From an uncultured Candidatus Saccharibacteria bacterium (GTDB taxonomy: Bacteria > Patescibacteriota > Minisyncoccia > Phycocordibacterales > JAKFXT01): a stretch of DNA of 64,000 nucleotides. Shown here in pieces: positions 1,650 through 59,094 of the stretch (its first letter is position 1; each line of letters begins with the position of its first letter). The stretch covers positions 6,326-70,325 of the forward strand of contig CAZIPS010000002.1 of the NCBI GenBank assembly GCA_964541455.1. The letters run 5' to 3'. The notes beneath the pieces are model-generated. The model saw only the letters and a program-made list of their open reading frames with translations, was not told the DNA's origin and did not search any database. Both the position numbers and the translations under genes were made by a program.

Positions 1650-1678
1650 TTGCTAAAAGTAGTTTTTTGTTATATAAT
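1650..1678 (+). promoter_or_regulatory. sigma70-like promoter TTGCTA-N17-TATAAT upstream of GC-rich cassette 1
   Basis: TTGCTA at 1650-1655, 17-nt spacer, TATAAT at 1673-1678; spacer contains AGTTTTTTG; 22/29 positions identical to the module at 19618-19646. Confidence 0.4.
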
Positions 1679-1736
1679 AAAGTTCGGTAAGTTTTTTCGA
1701 TTAATTTTTTTGGCCTATGGGCCGAGGAGGTATGGG

Positions 1737-2039
1737 ATGTACAATCCCGACAATGCCAATCCCGACAGGGATACGACCCCGATTGCTCACGTGGAGCGGC
1801 TGGGGGACATCATCCACAGCATGCTCGGGGCGAGGATTGTGTATCGCCCTTGGCAGCTCGCAGGACCTTCTGAGCAGAACGAAATCCTGCTGCAGAAGGC
1901 AGGCGAAATCTGCGTGGTCACCGTGAAAGCGGGAGATCGCCGGCAGGCTTTCGAGGTGAGCAACCTCGGGGCGCAGTTCCTGGCGCTGGTGAAGGTCCTG
2001 AGCCACCAGACCGGGTTCGAGTACCGCGAAGTATTCTGA
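1737..2039 (+). CDS. hypothetical protein, GC-rich cassette 1 (100 aa, MYNPDNANPDRDTTPIAHVERLGDIIHSML...)
   Basis: ATG at 1737 lies 6 nt after GAGGAGG (1724-1730); about 60% GC in a roughly 40% GC neighbourhood; stop lies 16 nt before a hairpin terminator; no family recognised. Confidence 0.55.
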   Translation: MYNPDNANPDRDTTPIAHVERLGDIIHSMLGARIVYRPWQLAGPSEQNEILLQKAGEICVVTVKAGDRRQAFEVSNLGAQFLALVKVLSHQTGFEYREVF

Positions 2040-2054
2040 GGCGGTACTCGGGCG

Positions 2055-2086
2055 AGCGTGCGCAGCGATGCGCACGCTTTTTTTAT
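2055..2086 (+). terminator. intrinsic terminator of cassette 1
   Basis: 9-bp GC stem AGCGTGCGC/GCGCACGCT with 6-nt loop, followed by TTTTTTTATTT; the T-run overlaps the cysS stop codon. Confidence 0.6.
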
Positions 2087-8186: not shown

Positions 8187-8258
8187 CGGGGTATAGTGTA
8201 TCGGTAACACACGTGCATGGGGTGCACGTAACGCTGGGTTCGACTCCCAGTACCCCGA
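8187..8258 (+). tRNA. tRNA-Pro (anticodon GGG)
   Basis: Manual fold: 7-bp acceptor CGGGGTA/TACCCCG (C1:G72, A73), D-arm GTGT/ACAC, anticodon stem CGTGC/GCACG with loop ATGGGGT (U33, GGG, G37), variable loop TAACG, T-arm CTGGG-TTCGACT-CCCAG; no encoded CCA. Confidence 0.8.
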
Positions 8259-11213: not shown

Positions 11214-11247
11214 AGTATAAAAAACAGGCAAGCCATTCGGCTTGCCT
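11214..11247 (-). terminator. intrinsic terminator of cassette 2
   Basis: AGGCAAGCC-ATTC-GGCTTGCCT hairpin; on the minus strand it is followed by TTTTTTAT; a second weaker hairpin GGGGAG-TCT-CTCCCC lies at 11184-11198. Confidence 0.6.
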
Positions 11248-11269
11248 TGGTGTGCAGTGTGGCGCGCGT

Positions 11270-11647
11270 TCACCTTCTTGTGCGCGTGGAGCCGTACTCC
11301 ATGGTGTCTTTGAGTAGGTTCCAAAGCAGCTCTTCCGCCCTTTCCATTTCTGGAAGCGTCGGGGAATCGGCGAGAGCGGCACGGAGCGTCCTAATGAGTG
11401 CCATGATGATCTCACTTCTTTCGTTTAACGTGGCGTTCCTAGGGATCTTCCCTACACGCTCCAGTTGTTCCTCGAAGACTGCGAGGGAATCACTTTCACC
11501 ACGCAGAATGATTGAATACATGACGATAAGTCTGCGTGCGTCTCGGTTGTCAGCGGGGACAGTTGTGTGGCCATCCTTTTTCCGGTGTAGCCTGAAAAGG
11601 GCTCCGGTGATGGTCTTGGCATGCTCTATGGTCATGCTCATGGACAT
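11270..11647 (-). CDS. hypothetical protein, GC-rich cassette 2 (125 aa, MSMSMTIEHAKTITGALFRLHRKKDGH...)
   Basis: Minus-strand ATG at 11647 preceded by AGGAG (6-nt spacing); GC-rich; terminator 22 nt past the stop; contains an R-x4-H dipeptide pattern (RKKDGH) but no confident family. Confidence 0.55.
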   Translation of the reverse strand: MSMSMTIEHAKTITGALFRLHRKKDGHTTVPADNRDARRLIVMYSIILRGESDSLAVFEEQLERVGKIPRNATLNERSEIIMALIRTLRAALADSPTLPEMERAEELLWNLLKDTMEYGSTRTRR

Positions 11648-11711
11648 AACGAACTCCTACAGTAAAGTGGGCTGCAGCTTTTATAACACAAAATAAAGGA
11701 AAATGAAGGGG

Positions 11712-18842: not shown

Positions 18843-19571
18843 TTAAGAAATTCTAGGTATACCAACTTCGGCAGTTTCCATAGTAATGTCGCTAAAACGT
18901 TCTTCTTGAGTTACTGCTATAATACCTTGCTTTACTAACTCTAGCATAGCAAGAAACCCAACAATTACATGTACCTTTTCGGCTTTTTCTCCCCCCGCAA
19001 ACTGTTTAAATGAGGTCCGTAGATTGCTTTGGATACGTGTGACTAAGCGCTCTATCATCTCCTCAATACTCATCACTTTCTTAACAATTGCTTGGGGGAT
19101 ATGTTCTTTGAGAGGGATTGCAAGAAGTACATTTTTAATACTTTCGTAAAGTGATGTTGAGGAAATCGTGTCTTCAGGAGAAAATACGGAGTCAATAACT
19201 TTTTGTTCAGTCTTACTAAAGATAGGAGTTTTCCCATACATTGTTTTAACATGCAGGCTCAAGGCGCGAATCTTTTCAAGTGTTTTAAGACGCTCTTCGA
19301 GTGCAGCGATATCAACACTTTCTTCGGTGGTGAGTGAGAGGTTTGGAAGAAGGGATTTTGATTTGATAAGTAAGAGGGTTGAGGCAACAAGTACAAAGTG
19401 TGCGATGTGCGGTATCCCCTCTTCCTGCATTACTTTGACATGTTCAATGAAGTCGTCAGTGACGCTCGCAAGAGAAATATCGTTGATATGGAGTTTACGT
19501 TTCTCAATAAGGTCAAGGAGTAGATCAAGAGGCCCTTCAAATTGTGCAAGCTGTACTTTAAAGGCTTCCAT
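18843..19571 (-). CDS. scpA: segregation and condensation protein A
   Basis: About 243 aa from MEAFKVQLAQFEGPLDLLL (ScpA N-terminal signature); adjacent to scpB. Confidence 0.8.
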   Translation of the reverse strand: MEAFKVQLAQFEGPLDLLLDLIEKRKLHINDISLASVTDDFIEHVKVMQEEGIPHIAHFVLVASTLLLIKSKSLLPNLSLTTEESVDIAALEERLKTLEKIRALSLHVKTMYGKTPIFSKTEQKVIDSVFSPEDTISSTSLYESIKNVLLAIPLKEHIPQAIVKKVMSIEEMIERLVTRIQSNLRTSFKQFAGGEKAEKVHVIVGFLAMLELVKQGIIAVTQEERFSDITMETAEVGIPRIS

Positions 19572-19617
19572 AATGTATTCTACTATAACGGTTTTGGGCC
19601 GTTCGGGCAATCAGCGC

Positions 19618-19646
19618 TTGCTAAAATGGATTTTTTGTCCTATAGT
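19618..19646 (+). promoter_or_regulatory. sigma70-like promoter TTGCTA-N17-TATAGT upstream of GC-rich cassette 3
   Basis: TTGCTAAAA-TGG-ATTTTTTGT-CC-TATAGT; same module as 1650-1678; a GGCGCGA/TCGCGCC hairpin at 19672-19694 lies in the 5'UTR. Confidence 0.4.
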
Positions 19647-19714
19647 GAAATTTGCTGTAAATTTTGGAAGGCGCGACCAATAAAATTCGCGCCACCACGG
19701 AAAAGGAGGGCCGC

Positions 19715-19978
19715 ATGGCCGCTGAAAAGGGCTGTTGTTGGACGCAGGGCGACAATCGTTGTGTTACGCTCTGCGAGGATGGGCACTGCCCAGGGGGGGA
19801 CGTTTGCGTAACGTCCCAGAGGCACAACGTCAACCACGTCGTTGACTACCCCTACCAGATCCTCCAAAGGGTCATGGAAGAGGGGCGGCCGGGACAGAAG
19901 ACGAAACACAGGCATACTGGGACGGGCGACGGAGACCGTTCTGTCTGGCAGGTGGGCGTCCCTGAAGCTTCATCGTGA
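19715..19978 (+). CDS. hypothetical Cys-rich small protein, GC-rich cassette 3 (87 aa, MAAEKGCCWTQGDNRCVTLCEDGHCPGGDVCVT...)
   Basis: ATG at 19715 lies 5 nt after AAGGAGG; 7 Cys in the first 32 residues; no signal peptide; GC-rich; terminator directly after the stop. Confidence 0.5.
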   Translation: MAAEKGCCWTQGDNRCVTLCEDGHCPGGDVCVTSQRHNVNHVVDYPYQILQRVMEEGRPGQKTKHRHTGTGDGDRSVWQVGVPEASS

Positions 19979-19993
19979 ATGCCCTTCGGGCAA

Positions 19994-20022
19994 GGCTGCG
20001 TACCCCGCAGCCTTTTTTATTA
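19994..20022 (+). terminator. intrinsic terminator of cassette 3
   Basis: GGCTGCG-TACCC-CGCAGCC followed by TTTTTTATTATTT; the T-run abuts the aspS stop codon. Confidence 0.6.
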
Positions 20023-21345
20023 TTTACTAAGAAGCGTGTCGATACGATTAATGTCGCGTGGGAAAAGGGTGGCCTCTTTTACATTAGAGAGATTGAGGAA
20101 TTTTTGAGTGAGACGCTCGAGACCTATCGCTAGCCCCCCGTGTGGAGGCATACCCGTGTCAAAGGCTTGGAGATAGAAAGAAAATAGTTCTGGGTTAAGA
20201 TTTTTATTTTTTAAGCCTTCGAGCATAAGTTCCCTTGTATGGCGGCGCTGACCACCCGTAGTTATCTCAACTCCACGGAAGAGTAGATCAAAAGATTTTG
20301 AAAATCCCTTATCGTTTTCATCCTCGTAAGTATAGAAGGGGCGCTTAGTAATTGGGTAGTGCGTGATAAAGATAAAATCAGAATTATGGGTTTTCTTTGC
20401 CCACTCACAAAGCTGTCTTTCGTGTTCTGGCTCAAGGTCTGGTTCCCCTACTGCTTTGCCGCCGAATTCTTTTTCGATAAGTTCCTGTGCCTCGCGAAGC
20501 TTCATAGTGGGGATATGCGCTGGCACTACAGGAATTTCTGCCTTAAGTAGAGCGAACTCTTTTTCACATGTTTTATGAAGCTCTTCGGTGATCGCTATCA
20601 TAAGATCATTTTCAAGGCGCATGATATCAGTATGGTCTTTGATAAAGCCAAACTCTAAATCGAGAGAAGTGTACTCGTTTAGATGTCGTGAGGTTGCATG
20701 TTTTTCAGCGCGAAAGACGTTTCCAATAGTGTAGACACGCTCAAAGACACCGACCATGATTTGTTTATATAACTGTGGAGAGGTGGCAAGTCCTGCTTTA
20801 TGCCCAAAGTGGTCTATGTTATACACAGCACTTCCCCCTTCTGCATCCCCCCCAACAATTTTTGGACACTGAAATTCTGTAAATCCACGGCTGTCAAGGA
20901 AAGCATGAAATGCTTTAATAATGTGGCTTTGCACTTTAAATATTGCTCGGCTTCTTTCGCTACGAAGCGTGTAAGGTTGGTTATCAAGAAAAGTATCAAT
21001 GTTAAGTTCAGTATCTAACTCAAATGGGACCTCAGCGCTTGCAAGCACAGTGATGCTCGTGATTTCAAGTTCAATGTCGCCATTTTGAACCCCTTCTTTG
21101 ACCATTTTTAATGGACGCTTATTAACTTTCCCCTCAATTGTCACCACCCACTCTGGGCGGAGAGTCTCGGCCACTTTGTGGGCTTTTTCGTAGTTTGGGA
21201 GGACTACGCCTTGTACAAGCCCTGTGCTATCACGAATATCAAGGAAAATAAGCTTGCCGTGGTCACGCCTAATATGTATCCATCCGTTAATGGTAACGCC
21301 CTTCTCTATGTTTTGGGCCAGATCTTTAATGAGTGTTCTTTCCAT
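20020..21345 (-). CDS. aspS: aspartyl-tRNA synthetase, short type-2 (archaeal-like) form
   Basis: 441 aa; N-terminal OB anticodon-binding domain; class II motifs FRAEKHATSRHLNEY and the SPQLYKQ motif (AspRS QSPQ-type rather than AsnRS SGQL); no GAD insertion; AsnRS cannot be fully excluded. Confidence 0.7.
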   Translation of the reverse strand: MERTLIKDLAQNIEKGVTINGWIHIRRDHGKLIFLDIRDSTGLVQGVVLPNYEKAHKVAETLRPEWVVTIEGKVNKRPLKMVKEGVQNGDIELEITSITVLASAEVPFELDTELNIDTFLDNQPYTLRSERSRAIFKVQSHIIKAFHAFLDSRGFTEFQCPKIVGGDAEGGSAVYNIDHFGHKAGLATSPQLYKQIMVGVFERVYTIGNVFRAEKHATSRHLNEYTSLDLEFGFIKDHTDIMRLENDLMIAITEELHKTCEKEFALLKAEIPVVPAHIPTMKLREAQELIEKEFGGKAVGEPDLEPEHERQLCEWAKKTHNSDFIFITHYPITKRPFYTYEDENDKGFSKSFDLLFRGVEITTGGQRRHTRELMLEGLKNKNLNPELFSFYLQAFDTGMPPHGGLAIGLERLTQKFLNLSNVKEATLFPRDINRIDTLLSK

Positions 21346-41273: not shown

Positions 41274-41305
41274 AAGTAGTATAGCAAAATATAAAACCCG
41301 TCTTC
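41274..41305 (-). terminator. intrinsic terminator of cassette 4
   Basis: AACCCGTC-TTCAC-GACGGGTT hairpin followed (minus strand) by TTTTATATTTTGC. Confidence 0.55.
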
Positions 41306-41341
41306 ACGACGGGTTCCCTGCGGGGCAGGCAGCCTTGGCGC

Positions 41342-41509
41342 TTAGCTGGCGCGGGTATGCCTTTTCTGGTAGCCACCGTGAGGGGCAGGCAGCCCCCCTG
41401 GCGGCGGGTCGCGCGCCTTTGGCGCGGGCGTGGATTCAAACAGAAATACTGGCCCAGAGAATGCTACGTTAAGTACTGTCTCGATGAGGCAGTACATGAG
41501 ATGTTTCAT
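41342..41509 (-). CDS. hypothetical small protein, GC-rich cassette 4 (55 aa, MKHLMYCLIETVLNVAFSGPVFLFESTPAPKARDPPPGGLPAPHGGYQKRHTRAS)
   Basis: Below the ORF-track size cutoff; found by hand: minus-strand ATG at 41509 lies 7 nt after AGGAGG; hydrophobic N-terminal half, Pro/Gly-rich basic C-terminus; terminator 37 nt after the stop; contains the direct repeat GGGGCAGGCAGCC twice. Confidence 0.4.
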   Translation of the reverse strand: MKHLMYCLIETVLNVAFSGPVFLFESTPAPKARDPPPGGLPAPHGGYQKRHTRAS

Positions 41510-41544
41510 GGTCGCTGCCTCCTCTTGTTTGCAAAACTAAAAAA

Positions 41545-41573
41545 ATAGTAGCAAAAAACTAGTTCTTTTACAA
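41545..41573 (-). promoter_or_regulatory. sigma70-like promoter TTGTAA-N17-TACTAT (minus strand) upstream of cassette 4
   Basis: Minus-strand TTGTAA-AAGAACTAGTTTTTTGC-TACTAT; spacer again carries AGTTTTTTG; the -35 overlaps the ogt stop codon. Confidence 0.35.
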
Positions 41574-56938: not shown

Positions 56939-56941
56939 TTT

Positions 56942-56969
56942 ATAAAAAAACACCCCGCTTGCGCGGGGT
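56942..56969 (-). terminator. intrinsic terminator of cassette 5
   Basis: CCCCGC-TTGC-GCGGGG hairpin; on the minus strand it is followed by TTTTTTTATA. Confidence 0.55.
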
Positions 56970-56985
56970 AAGCGGGGGTGGCGGA

Positions 56986-57618
56986 TCAGCGTGGTGGCGC
57001 CAGAACAAGCCTGAGGAAATCCTCCATGGTATCGGCGATGAGGCAGCCCATCGCCTCAAGCTGCTCCTTGCTTGGAAAACCGCCGAGGCCGAACTGGGGT
57101 TGCCATTCGCACCCGACGATCACCTTGGGAGGAGGTTCGTCTTCGTTGTCCCGCAAGTTTTCCTTCCGAGCAAGCGCCGTCACGATGTGCAAAAAGTCAT
57201 CAGGGTTGGGCCGAAGGTGGTACTTGCCGGGGTTTTCGAAGTAGTGTGCTGTAAACCAGAAGAGAAAAGTATGGGAGAGTGCCAAGGAGAGCCGCACATT
57301 GCCTGCGTCCTCGATGTCCTTGCGCGGGTCATCATGAAGGAAAAAACTTCCCCGCTCGAGGCCAACGTCCACCACCCCCTTGAACCCAGACAGGGCCCGC
57401 AGGGCGTGATACTGCCATGGGACATGCGTTGGGTCATTGAGAGCATTGATCGGCCCACAAAGGGCCACGCTTCCAAATGCCGCCATGGCATGACTCGAAA
57501 CTAGGTCGAGCTCTTGATGCCTCCAGCGGTAGTGGCCAGTGAGATTGAGGCTCTGCCAGAACTTTTGTACAGCAGCAGCCTTTTCTTGCAACTCTTGCAA
57601 TTCTCCGGGAGCGAACAT
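56986..57618 (-). CDS. hypothetical protein, GC-rich cassette 5 (210 aa, MFAPGELQELQEKAAAVQKFWQSL...)
   Basis: Minus-strand ATG at 57618 preceded by AAGGAA; spans the whole 60%-GC island; terminator 17 nt after the stop; overlapping ORFs in other frames lack translation signals; no family recognised. Confidence 0.55.
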   Translation of the reverse strand: MFAPGELQELQEKAAAVQKFWQSLNLTGHYRWRHQELDLVSSHAMAAFGSVALCGPINALNDPTHVPWQYHALRALSGFKGVVDVGLERGSFFLHDDPRKDIEDAGNVRLSLALSHTFLFWFTAHYFENPGKYHLRPNPDDFLHIVTALARKENLRDNEDEPPPKVIVGCEWQPQFGLGGFPSKEQLEAMGCLIADTMEDFLRLVLAPPR

Positions 57619-57705
57619 CGCTAGTTTCCTTTCATGGGGTCATGGGGGTAATGGGGTACTAAAAGCGAGTTTCACAATAACACGCACTTTAATTTTATCA
57701 AAAAG

Positions 57706-58745: not shown

Positions 58746-58781
58746 AAAATCAAAAAGGAGATAAGGCAGTAAATGCAAAAT

Positions 58782-58810
58782 TTGACTTTATATAATAAGT
58801 AAGTTATAAT
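58782..58810 (+). promoter_or_regulatory. consensus sigma70 promoter TTGACT-N17-TATAAT upstream of cassette 6
   Basis: TTGACT 58782-58787, 17-nt spacer, TATAAT 58805-58810; about 29 nt upstream of the cassette 6 ATG. Confidence 0.5.
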
Positions 58811-58839
58811 TATCCTCAGGCAATTTCAGGAGATTTTTT

Positions 58840-59055
58840 ATGGACTTTTGTCCAGCATGCGGTGGGCTTCTCAAGGAGACCCACCTCTCAGGAAACCTCT
58901 ACGGGTTTTCTCGGCGTGATGCATACAAGTGCAATGACTGCAGCCTTGTCTTGGCACGCGCTAACGGCGGGGCGGTACACTCGGTCACCCCCATCGCACC
59001 AAATGCGGTGGTGATCGAGGGGTACAAGTTGGGGCTCCGTCTCCCACAGGTTTAG
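58840..59055 (+). CDS. hypothetical zinc-ribbon small protein, GC-rich cassette 6 (71 aa)
   Basis: ATG at 58840 lies 7 nt after AGGAG; CPACGG ... CNDC (C-x2-C-x23-C-x2-C) zinc-ribbon pattern; GC-rich; terminator 6 nt after the stop. Confidence 0.55.
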   Translation: MDFCPACGGLLKETHLSGNLYGFSRRDAYKCNDCSLVLARANGGAVHSVTPIAPNAVVIEGYKLGLRLPQV

Positions 59056-59061
59056 TATCAC

Positions 59062-59094
59062 CCCGGGTCGGAAGACCCGGGTGTTTCTTTTTAT
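59062..59094 (+). terminator. intrinsic terminator of cassette 6
   Basis: CCCGGGTC-GGAA-GACCCGGG followed by TGTTTCTTTTTAT; overlaps the atpC stop codon. Confidence 0.6.

What the first reader, a model, noticed from the sequence alone, without database searches (positions are those of the whole stretch)
19596..20022. Cassette 3: Cys-rich 87-aa protein with structured 5'UTR, sharing a promoter module with cassette 1
Promoter TTGCTAAAA-TGG-ATTTTTTGT-CC-TATAGT is 22/29 identical to cassette 1's TTGCTAAAA-GTA-GTTTTTTGT-TA-TATAAT. A 7-bp GC hairpin (GGCGCGA...TCGCGCC, 19672-19694) sits between the promoter and the SD. The ORF has 7 cysteines in its first 32 residues (CCW...C...C....C.....C) and no signal peptide, suggesting a cytoplasmic metal-binding or redox peptide. 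An acidic/Gly-rich tail follows.
Basis: seen in the sequence. Interest (0 to 1): 0.65.

Follow-up and report, generated by a model that had tools for sequence, protein, structure and literature searches.

The report
Strain-variable small cysteine-rich protein gene
A real, self-contained gene for an 87-residue cysteine-rich protein of unknown family sits between two housekeeping genes of an uncultured Patescibacteria (CPR) bacterium. Nearly identical strains carry very different versions of it behind the same control region, and public gene callers put it on the wrong strand.

Summary
Window 19618-20020 (+) is a complete transcription unit: a sigma-70-like promoter, a 7-bp GC hairpin, a Shine-Dalgarno site (AAGGAGG), an 87-aa ORF and an intrinsic terminator. 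It has 60% GC in a 42% GC genome. Two details need correcting: there are 6 cysteines, not 7, and the hairpin lies at 19670-19693.

It is a translated gene, not a structured RNA.
- Strains 97-99.6% identical in the flanking genes carry a second allele (94 aa).
- Its first ~38 residues keep all six Cys.
- That stretch differs mostly at third codon positions (5/1/16; pS 0.65, pN 0.09).
- The middle of the protein is hypervariable (33% identity), and a C-terminal WQxGVPE motif is kept.

Two strains 99.6-99.7% identical in aspS, scpA and scpB differ by a swap of this ORF. A species at ~75% nucleotide identity has the same promoter, 5'UTR hairpin and terminator layout with a barely recognisable 85-aa orthologue.

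No protein or RNA family matches. Public pipelines call the antisense strand or call nothing.

The promoter resemblance to cassette 1 (22/29) is the most extreme of 903 promoter pairs in the window. Its T-rich spacer is not conserved in the related species.

Metal binding is plausible (3-4 Cys conserved across all versions) but untested. Function is unknown. The best reading is a highly expressed small metal-binding protein whose variable segment evolves under diversifying or balancing selection and is exchanged by recombination.

The parts
19582..19610 (-). Divergent promoter-like site of scpA (TTGCCC-17-TATAGT), back to back with the cassette promoter
   Evidence: The sequence block is conserved in the 75%-identity species (alignment A1).
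19618..19646 (+). Cassette promoter: -35 TTGCTA (19618-23), 17-nt T-rich spacer, -10 TATAGT (19641-46)
   Evidence: It is conserved in all strains, and the -35 and -10 are conserved in L010.
19653..19714 (+). 5'UTR (start inferred about 7 nt after the -10) with a stem-loop at 19665-19697 (core stem 19670-19676 / 19687-19693) and SD AAGGAGG at 19703-19709
   Evidence: The stem is kept in all variants, with one G-C to G-U change. The loop differs in L022 and L010. The left flank is 121/125 identical in strains and 104/125 in the 75%-identity species.
19715..19828 (+). Codons 1-38: conserved Cys-rich N-terminal domain (CC-x7-C-x3-C-x4-CPGG-x2-C, then VTSQRHN)
   Evidence: Allele A versus allele B: 78% aa identity, all 6 Cys kept, pS 0.65, pN 0.09. 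Differences by codon position are 5/1/16.
19829..19936 (+). Codons 39-74: hypervariable middle segment
   Evidence: 33% aa identity between alleles, with indels. All four within-allele amino-acid polymorphisms fall here (sequences). Several metagenome contigs break here.
19937..19978 (+). Codons 75-87 plus the stop: conserved C-terminal motif RSxWQxGVPE
   Evidence: R75, S76, W78, Q79, P83 and E84 are invariant in all five sequences, including the distant orthologue.
19980..20019 (+). 3' end: small hairpin TGCCC-TTC-GGGCA (19980-19992), then an intrinsic terminator stem-loop (19992-20014) and T-run. It abuts the stop codon of aspS (20020-20022, minus strand).
   Evidence: The layout is conserved in allele B and in L010.

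Best explanation
Window 19618-20020 is an independently transcribed, translated gene for a small (85-94 aa) cytoplasmic protein of a previously undescribed, lineage-restricted family.

Expression signals, read from the sequence (expression level is inferred, not shown):
- A strong sigma-70-type promoter.
- A 5' stem-loop, most likely an mRNA-stabilising cap.
- A near-consensus SD site and a strong terminator.

The protein has three parts:
- An N-terminal Cys6 domain under strong purifying selection. The most likely role is a structural metal (Zn or Fe-S) site, because 3-4 Cys plus a His are conserved even in the distant orthologue. This is inferred and untested.
- A hypervariable middle segment.
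- A short conserved C-terminal motif.

The coding part behaves as an exchangeable allele:
- Deeply diverged versions sit behind an almost invariant promoter and 5'UTR in strains that are otherwise 97-99.6% identical.
- They are swapped by homologous recombination, with breakpoints in the 3' end of aspS and near the SD site.
- The pattern fits diversifying or balancing selection on a strain-specific interaction mediated by the variable segment. The partner is unknown; it could be phage, host or sibling cells.
For: Transcription unit:
- Promoter and terminator; sequence.

Coding in the SD-defined frame:
- GC1/2/3 are 0.62/0.49/0.69.
- Allele A versus allele B in codons 4-38 shows differences of 5/1/16 by codon position. 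pN/pS is 0.15 in this frame, against 0.29-4.3 in the other five frames.
- dN/dS is about 0.06 for the N-terminal 36 aligned codons, with all six Cys kept.
- The sense ORF is intact in all five sequence versions (85-96 aa). The antisense ORF is not conserved.

Not an RNA gene:
- No Rfam, tRNA or tmRNA match.
- The folding z-score of the CDS is -0.6.

Orthology with the 85-aa ORF at the same site in a species at ~75% nucleotide identity:
- The Smith-Waterman score beats 4993 of 5000 shuffles, and the global score beats 4998 of 5000.
- It is the top-scoring frame pair.
- Invariant residues are C7, C16, C25-P-G and RSxWQ..PE.

Allele exchange:
- L022 (allele A) and L023 (allele B) differ at only a handful of sites in scpA, scpB and the first ~1080 nt of aspS (about 99.6-99.7% identical). 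They are unalignable in the ORF, with raised divergence in the last ~250 nt of aspS.
- The 3' third of aspS is a mosaic among strains.
- Flank pS is 0.03-0.2, against 0.65-0.87 in the ORF.

Control region more conserved than the genome average:
- 104/125 against ~74-76% elsewhere.
Against: - There is no expression data (RNA or peptide) for this organism.
- Metal binding rests only on Cys/His conservation. There is no CxxC knuckle and no match to any metal-binding family. The AlphaFold single-sequence model is poor (pLDDT 57.5).
- Positive selection in the middle segment cannot be shown, because synonymous sites are saturated. It could simply be an unconstrained linker.
- The antisense frame that shares wobble positions also shows a lowish pN/pS (0.29), so the strand call leans on the promoter, SD, terminator and ORF integrity.
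- Only three sequence lineages are available.
- The persistent GC-richness (GC3 0.69 against 0.38 for native genes) is not explained by this model.
Confidence: 0.55

Rival explanations
1. A precursor of a secreted or modified peptide (RiPP-, bacteriocin- or pheromone-like 'pherotype' locus). The conserved N-terminal part would be recognised by a maturation or export machinery encoded elsewhere. The variable part would give strain specificity.
For: - It is a small ORF with one conserved and one hypervariable part.
- Deeply diverged alleles sit in near-identical backgrounds and are exchanged by recombination. That is the pattern known (from my own knowledge) for comC, agrD and blp-type loci.
- The expression signals are strong.
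Against: - There is no signal peptide or double-glycine-type leader (by inspection).
- The conserved part, not the variable part, is the Cys-rich one.
- The immediate neighbours are scpA and aspS, with no maturase, transporter or receptor next to it.
- No RiPP or bacteriocin family is matched.
- At 87-94 aa it is long for such precursors.
Confidence: 0.12
2. A recently acquired foreign gene (a moron-like insertion from a GC-rich donor or mobile element) that is neutral or only transiently useful. Its variability would reflect independent acquisitions.
For: - GC is 0.60 and GC3 is 0.69, against 0.42 and 0.38 for native genes.
- It has its own promoter and terminator.
- It is oriented against the surrounding gene array.
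- The window holds five further GC-rich stand-alone units.
- Cassette 1's synonymous divergence is lower than that of its flanks, which suggests a history decoupled from the chromosome.
Against: - A homologous ORF with the same promoter, hairpin and terminator layout occupies the same site in a species at ~75% nucleotide identity. The unit is therefore old.
- The promoter and 5'UTR are AT-rich and more conserved than the genome average.
- The N-terminal domain is under strong purifying selection.
- There are no phage, plasmid or defence family hits and no viral relatives.
- There are no integrase genes or repeats at the borders.
Confidence: 0.15
3. The functional product is an RNA: a structured non-coding RNA, or an antisense or insulator transcript acting on read-through from aspS into scpA. 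The ORF would be a by-product of GC-richness.
For: - GC-rich islands in AT-rich genomes are often RNA genes.
- ORFs are open in several frames, as expected at 60% GC.
- The whole transcript folds somewhat better than shuffles (z -2.2 in the window, -4.3 in L010).
- aspS has no T-run terminator of its own.
Against: - There is no Rfam match even at E<=10.
- The CDS alone has z -0.6.
- The interior is unalignable between species, whereas the protein-level signal, ORF length and SD position are kept.
- The third-codon-position excess and conservation of six Cys codons between alleles are not expected for an RNA gene.
Confidence: 0.05
4. The gene is the antisense ORF (window 19640-19915, minus strand, 91 aa), as called by automatic annotation of public assemblies.
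For: - A gene is called on that strand in L001, L016 and L022/L024.
- The antisense frame sharing wobble positions has pN/pS 0.29.
Against: - There is no SD site before its ATG, and no promoter or terminator in that orientation.
- The antisense ORF is broken or much shorter in allele B (at most 64 aa), and no gene is called there in L023.
- GC by codon position is less coding-like (0.70/0.42/0.57).
Confidence: 0.03

Closest known systems
Phage 'morons' (autonomous promoter-gene-terminator modules with deviant base composition; concept from lambdoid phage genomics, recalled from my own knowledge)
   Same: A single small gene has its own sigma-70-like promoter and intrinsic terminator. It is inserted between two genes of a co-directional array, and its base composition is clearly different from the neighbours.
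   Different: It sits between chromosomal housekeeping genes (scpA, aspS), not in a prophage. There are no phage-family or viral matches. It is present at the same site in all strains and in a species at ~75% nucleotide identity, so it is not a presence/absence insertion.
Polymorphic peptide loci with 'pherotypes' or allotypes (e.g. comC, agrD, blp bacteriocin peptides; my own knowledge)
   Same: It is a small ORF with deeply diverged alleles in otherwise nearly identical genomes. The flanks are conserved, and the alleles move by homologous recombination.
   Different: There is no leader or signal sequence, and no linked processing, export or receptor genes. The product is 85-94 aa with a conserved Cys-rich domain.
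Bacterial metallothioneins (SmtA/BmtA) and other small Cys/His-rich metal-binding proteins
   Same: It is small, lacks a signal peptide, and has 6 Cys and 5 His in 87 aa. There is a local C-x-DGH-x-x-GG resemblance to SmtA (recalled from memory, not tested).
   Different: There is no significant match to any Pfam or NCBIfam metal-binding family or to any PDB sequence. There are no CxxC or CxC knuckles. Half of the protein is hypervariable, which is not a metallothionein trait.
Follistatin-N / EGF-like disulfide hairpin (C-x3-C-x4-CPG-x3-C-V)
   Same: Allele A residues 15-33 mimic this spacing, with a weak phmmer match to follistatin chains (E 0.25).
   Different: The match is not significant and disappears with the family profile. 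The spacing is not kept in the L010 orthologue. That is a eukaryotic extracellular domain, whereas no secretion signal is present here.

Membership tests
Rfam RNA families / tRNA / tmRNA | Match to a curated covariance model or an ARAGORN model | tested here: not met
   The only hit at gathering threshold in the whole window is tRNA-Pro at 8187-8258. In 19450-20150 at E<=10 there are only chance-level hits of 17 bits.
Phage moron | Single gene flanked by its own promoter and factor-independent terminator | tested here: met
   Promoter at 19618-19646 and terminator at 19992-20014.
Phage moron | Base composition deviating from the neighbouring genes | tested here: met
   GC is 0.60 against 0.40-0.44. 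GC3 is 0.69 against 0.377 +/- 0.058 for long ORFs.
Phage moron | Located inside a phage or prophage genome, and present or absent among related genomes | tested here: not met
   The neighbours are scpA/scpB/mraY and aspS/trpS. There are no PHROGs hits or viral relatives. The site is occupied in every strain and in the ~75%-identity species.
Bacterial metallothionein / small metal-binding protein families (Pfam, NCBIfam) | Significant match to the family profile | tested here: not met
   No such family is matched at E<=1 for any of the five family members.
Bacterial metallothionein / small metal-binding protein families (Pfam, NCBIfam) | Stoichiometric metal binding through conserved Cys/His | not testable with these tools
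   Only the conservation of C7, C16, C25 (and probably C31) and a His across all versions is seen.
Zinc ribbon / C4 zinc finger | Two CxxC (or CPxC) knuckles | tested here: not met
   The sequence has CC-x7-C-x3-C-x4-C-x5-C and no CxxC. There is no zinc-ribbon Pfam hit, unlike the 71-aa ORF at 58840.
RiPP precursor | Short precursor with a conserved recognition part and a hypervariable core | tested here: inconclusive
   The N-terminus is conserved and the middle is hypervariable. However, the Cys-rich part is the conserved one, and the C-terminus is conserved too.
RiPP precursor | Adjacent maturation enzyme, protease or transporter genes | tested here: not met
   The flanking genes are housekeeping genes on the other strand. 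The rest of the genome was not examined.
Pherotype-type peptide locus (comC/agrD-like) | Deeply diverged alleles in near-identical genomic backgrounds | tested here: met
   L022 versus L023: the flanks are about 99.6-99.7% identical and the ORF is unalignable. ORF pS is 0.65-0.87, against 0.03-0.2 in the flanks.
Pherotype-type peptide locus (comC/agrD-like) | Export leader and a linked, co-varying receptor or processing gene | tested here: not met
   No leader is seen (by inspection). The flanking genes are conserved housekeeping genes.
Diversity-generating retroelement target | Template repeat nearby and adenine-specific substitutions in the variable region | tested here: not met
   There is no second copy of the cassette DNA in the 64-kb window and no paralogue. 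Substitutions between the alleles involve all four bases. No search for a reverse transcriptase gene was run.
Integron gene cassette | Promoterless ORF with an attC site next to an integrase and attI | tested here: not met
   The unit has its own promoter. There is no shared recombination-site-like repeat at the borders of the six GC-rich units beyond short chance matches. No dedicated integrase search was run.

The most novel reading that the evidence does not exclude
The locus is one of a set of GC-rich, stand-alone, strongly signalled small genes in this Patescibacteria lineage whose histories are decoupled from the chromosome. They sit at fixed sites and are refreshed by recombination. Cassette 3 would be a balanced 'allotype' gene: a conserved metal-binding anchor domain presenting a hypervariable specificity segment that mediates strain-specific recognition of a host, phage or sibling cell. 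That would be a new class of small variable effector in episymbiotic bacteria, so far invisible because gene callers read the wrong strand.
Probability: 0.15. Interest if true: 0.8.

Novelty: new variant of a known kind. Interest (0 to 1): 0.5.

Why it matters
CPR/Patescibacteria genomes are small and full of unannotated small genes, and how these episymbionts interact with hosts and phages is largely unknown.

- This locus is a clear case of a translated orphan small protein. It has a constrained Cys-rich domain, a hypervariable segment, and alleles that recombine between near-identical strains. That is the population signature of genes involved in antagonistic or recognition interactions.
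- It exposes an annotation blind spot. Because the ORF is GC-rich in an AT-rich genome, automatic pipelines call the antisense strand or nothing. The family is therefore absent from protein databases, and 'no homologue' results are unreliable for this class.
- The persistent GC-richness of six such units in one 64-kb window is unexplained and could be studied at genome scale.

Tried and rejected
- **Known RNA gene:** I suspected RNase P, tmRNA, 6S or another known RNA because of the GC island. Rfam at gathering and at E<=10, and ARAGORN, gave nothing. The CDS folds no better than shuffles.
- **Protein homologues of the 87-aa product:**
  - The word-indexed search found none.
  - The full HMMER scan of 1.84 billion representatives gave only a repetitive 1617-aa chance hit.
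  - Pfam, NCBIfam, PHROGs and PADLOC gave nothing.
  - PDB by sequence gave only a weak follistatin-like match at E 0.25, which vanished with the profile.
- **Structure:** The AlphaFold2 single-sequence model has pLDDT 57.5, and the Foldseek matches are meaningless.
- **Metagenome scan:** The conserved 5'UTR 20-mer gave one unrelated proteobacterial chance hit, L018.
- **Viral-contig scans:** The protein, the 210-aa neighbour cassette and the family alignment found no relatives.
- **More distant relatives:** Moraniibacteriota and Paceibacterota loci (L012-L015) have no GC-rich unit after aspS.
- **DGR, integron and paralogue hypotheses:** No repeat, paralogue or adenine bias was found.
- **Literature:** Two full-text searches found nothing relevant.
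- **What did work:** The exact look-up of the sense protein found no record. Listing the 90% clusters of the flanking ScpA and AspRS proteins and fetching their contigs gave the second allele.

Full report
**1. What is in the sequence**

The finding lies in the 448-nt spacer (19572-20019) between two minus-strand housekeeping genes:
- scpA (18843-19571).
- A non-discriminating AspRS gene (20020-21345). Public contigs confirm the Pfam families of both gene products.

On the + strand the spacer holds a complete transcription unit:
- A -35 TTGCTA (19618) and a -10 TATAGT (19641).
- A stem-loop, GGCGCGA-N10-TCGCGCC (19670-19693), extended by UGG/CCA.
- SD AAGGAGG (19703-19709), with the ATG 5 nt later (19715).
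- An 87-codon ORF ending at TGA 19976-78.
- A small hairpin, then a 9-bp terminator stem (19992-20014) with a T-run that abuts the aspS stop codon.

A second promoter-like site points the other way towards scpA (19610-19582).

GC content is 0.60 here, against about 0.42 around it.

There are six cysteines, not seven. The hairpin coordinates are off by one or two bases.

**2. RNA gene or protein gene**

A GC-rich island in an AT-rich genome suggested a structured RNA first. That idea failed:
- Rfam finds only a tRNA-Pro elsewhere in the window, and nothing credible here even at E<=10.
- ARAGORN finds no tmRNA.
- The whole transcript folds slightly better than shuffles (z -2.2). The coding part alone does not (z -0.6).

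An ORF alone means little at 60% GC, and several frames on both strands are open. The GC by codon position (0.62/0.49/0.69) is coding-like.

The decisive evidence came from other strains.

**3. Relatives**

The sense protein is absent from the large protein collections. One reason is that public pipelines call a gene on the antisense strand (L001, L016, L022/L024) or call none (L023).

I reached related DNA through the flanking genes:
- A genome scan with AspRS gave a MAG (contig CAYLPX010000001.1, labelled Candidatus Saccharibacteria). It is ~74-76% identical in nucleotides, and its AspRS is 89% identical.
- The 90% clusters of ScpA and AspRS gave six further strain contigs, plus a second stretch of one of them.

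In the ~75%-identity species (L010):
- The spacer has the same architecture.
- The block from the scpA start to the end of the hairpin is 104/125 identical. That is better than the genome average.
- The interior is unalignable, and the terminator layout is kept.
- An 85-aa ORF follows an AGGAGG site at the same place.
- Its similarity to the window protein is weak but real: BLASTP E 0.003; Smith-Waterman beaten by 7 of 5000 shuffles; global score beaten by 2 of 5000; best of all frame pairs.
- C7, G12, C16, C25-P26-G27 and R75-S76-x-W78-Q79...P83-E84 are invariant.

More distant Patescibacteria have no such unit after aspS.

**4. Two alleles in one population**

Strains 94-99% identical to the window in the flanking genes (pS 0.03-0.2) carry one of two versions:
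- Allele A: the window's version. L022 carries it with 5 SNPs.
- Allele B: 94 aa, carried by L019, L021 and L023.

The promoter and 5'UTR are nearly identical in both (121/125).

Allele B reads MEKSCCWTQGNDSCVALCEEGRCPGGEVCVTSQRHN..., which keeps all six Cys.

Selection by region:

| Region | aa identity A vs B | pS | pN |
|---|---|---|---|
| Codons 1-38 (36 aligned) | 78% | 0.65 | 0.09 |
| Codons 39-74 | 33%, with indels | 0.87 | 0.53 |
| Codons 75-87 | 67% | 0.57 | 0.18 |

- In 35 ungapped codons of the N-terminal domain, the 22 differences fall 5/1/16 on codon positions 1/2/3.
- pN/pS is 0.15 in the SD-defined frame, against 0.29-4.3 in the other five frames.
- All four within-allele amino-acid polymorphisms lie in the middle segment.
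- The sense ORF is intact in all five versions, whereas the antisense ORF is not.

This shows that the ORF is translated and that its N-terminal domain is functionally constrained.

**5. Allele exchange**

- L022 (allele A) and L023 (allele B) differ at only a handful of sites across scpA, scpB and the first ~1080 nt of aspS, about 99.6-99.7% identical.
- They diverge from the last ~250 nt of aspS through the ORF up to the SD site.
- Both alleles occur within the tight L019/L021/L022/L023 clade. L020 has allele A on a background 99.2-99.4% identical over scpA, scpB and mraY to the allele-B strains L021 and L023.
- The 3' third of aspS is a mosaic. L025 equals L022 in its first 500 nt and equals the window in its last 326 nt.
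- Several metagenome contigs end inside the hypervariable segment. One (L002) joins 52 nt of unrelated sequence to allele A at 19849/19850.

Synonymous divergence between the alleles is saturated, while the flanks differ by a few percent. The alleles are therefore old lineages moved by homologous recombination, not products of recent fast protein evolution alone.

There is no DGR-like template copy, adenine bias or paralogue.

**6. The promoter claim**

- The 22/29 match with cassette 1 (1650-1678) is the top pair among 903 pairs of promoter-like sites in the window. The mean is 12.2 and the next best is 19.
- The motif occurs nowhere else in the 64 kb.
- In the related species the two promoters match at 18/29 by my hand count, and the T-run spacer is not kept.
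- The durable shared features are TTGCyAAA at the -35, a TGT, and TATAnT.

I read this as a common strong-promoter subtype rather than a transferred module.

The 5' hairpin stem is invariant apart from one G-C to G-U change, while its loop varies. That fits a structural mRNA 5' cap, but invariant pairs do not prove structure.

**7. Context**

The window holds at least five more small, GC-rich, stand-alone units, each with its own promoter-like site and terminator:

| Unit | Coordinates (strand) | ORF |
|---|---|---|
| c1 | 1650-2080 (+) | 100 aa |
| c2 | 11225-11700 (-) | 125 aa |
| c41k | 41290-41570 (-) | 55 aa |
| c210 | 56940-57700 (-) | 210 aa |
| c71 | 58780-59090 (+) | 71 aa, CxxC...CxxC |

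- Their GC3 is 0.62-0.77, against 0.377 +/- 0.058 for long ORFs. The long-ORF set includes ribosomal and ATP-synthase genes.
- None matches a family, apart from weak sub-threshold zinc-ribbon hits for the 71-aa ORF.
- Cassette 1 is syntenic in the related species at 83% aa identity, with dN/dS 0.13. Its pS (0.44) is lower than that of its flanks (0.75-0.79).
- Cassettes 1 and 3 thus both have histories decoupled from their flanks, in opposite directions.
- Nearly all genes from 12 to 64 kb lie on the minus strand. Three of the six units lie on the + strand.

**8. Interpretation**

Shown:
- An autonomous, translated gene.
- A constrained Cys6 N-terminal domain, a hypervariable middle and a conserved C-terminal motif.
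- Recombinational exchange of old alleles behind a conserved control region.

Inferred:
- High expression.
- A cytoplasmic location.
- Metal binding by the conserved Cys/His.
- Diversifying or balancing selection on a strain-specific interaction.

Not explained:
- The function.
- The long-term GC-richness.

The closest analogies are phage morons (for architecture) and pherotype-type peptide loci (for population pattern). The defining features of both are only partly met, and no metal-binding or RiPP family is matched.

I rate it a new variant of a known kind: a polymorphic small Cys-rich protein gene. Interest is moderate. A minority reading, that it belongs to a new class of recombining small variable effectors in CPR bacteria, would be considerably more interesting.

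Noticed in passing
window 1650-2080 (+): Cassette 1 is a promoter, a GGCC-TATG-GGCC hairpin, a GAGGAGG site, a 100-aa GC-rich orphan ORF (1737-2039) and a terminator. It is syntenic between dnaB and cysS in the ~75%-identity species (83% aa, dN/dS about 0.13). Its synonymous divergence (pS 0.44) is much lower than that of its flanks (0.75-0.79). Its CDS folds better than shuffles (z about -3).
   Followed up: partly
window 11225-11700 (-), 41290-41570 (-), 56940-57700 (-), 58780-59090 (+): Four more GC-rich stand-alone units have their own promoter-like sites and terminators, with ORFs of 125, 55, 210 and 71 aa (the last with CxxC...CxxC). GC3 is 0.62-0.67, against 0.38 for native genes. No family hits were found. 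The 210-aa protein has only a 97% strain variant in 5.8 billion proteins.
   Followed up: partly
window 41300-41420 (-): The 55-aa unit contains a direct repeat GGGGCAGGCAGCC (twice) in a stretch reaching 71% GC, and folds better than shuffles (z -2.9). It could be a small RNA rather than a protein gene. Rfam gives only chance-level hits.
   Followed up: partly
L001 3675-3950, L016 384-659, L022 2655-2951 (= window 19640-19915, minus strand): Public assemblies annotate an ORF on the antisense strand of the cassette (91 or 98 aa), or annotate nothing (L023). The sense protein is therefore missing from protein databases.
   Followed up: yes
L002 3173-3224 (junction at window 19849/19850): A JGI contig joins 52 nt of unrelated sequence, with an in-frame TGA, to the 3' half of allele A and then ends. 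It could be a third allele, an insertion or an assembly tip.
   Followed up: partly
window 20020-20350 (aspS 3' third) and loci L022, L023, L025, L002: The 3' end of aspS next to the cassette is a recombination mosaic among strains. L025 equals L022 in its first 500 nt and equals the window in its last 326 nt.
   Followed up: partly
window 19992-20022: aspS (minus strand) has no T-run terminator of its own. Its stop codon abuts the cassette's terminator hairpin, which on the minus strand is preceded by an A-run. Read-through from aspS towards scpA, antisense to the cassette, is possible.
   Followed up: no
window 12000-64000: There is extreme strand bias: almost every ORF of 130 aa or more lies on the minus strand. 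Three of the six GC-rich units point the other way.
   Followed up: no
window 19647-19670: The region around the inferred transcription start, AAATTT-GCTGT-AAATTT, holds two palindromic hexamers. It is almost invariant between strains and species and could be an operator.
   Followed up: no
window 19980-20011 and 41316-41340: The cassette 3 terminator region (CAAGGCTGCGTACCCCGCAG) and the 3' region of the 55-aa unit (CAAGGCTGCCTGCCCCGCAG) share 18 of 20 bases. This may be chance.
   Followed up: no
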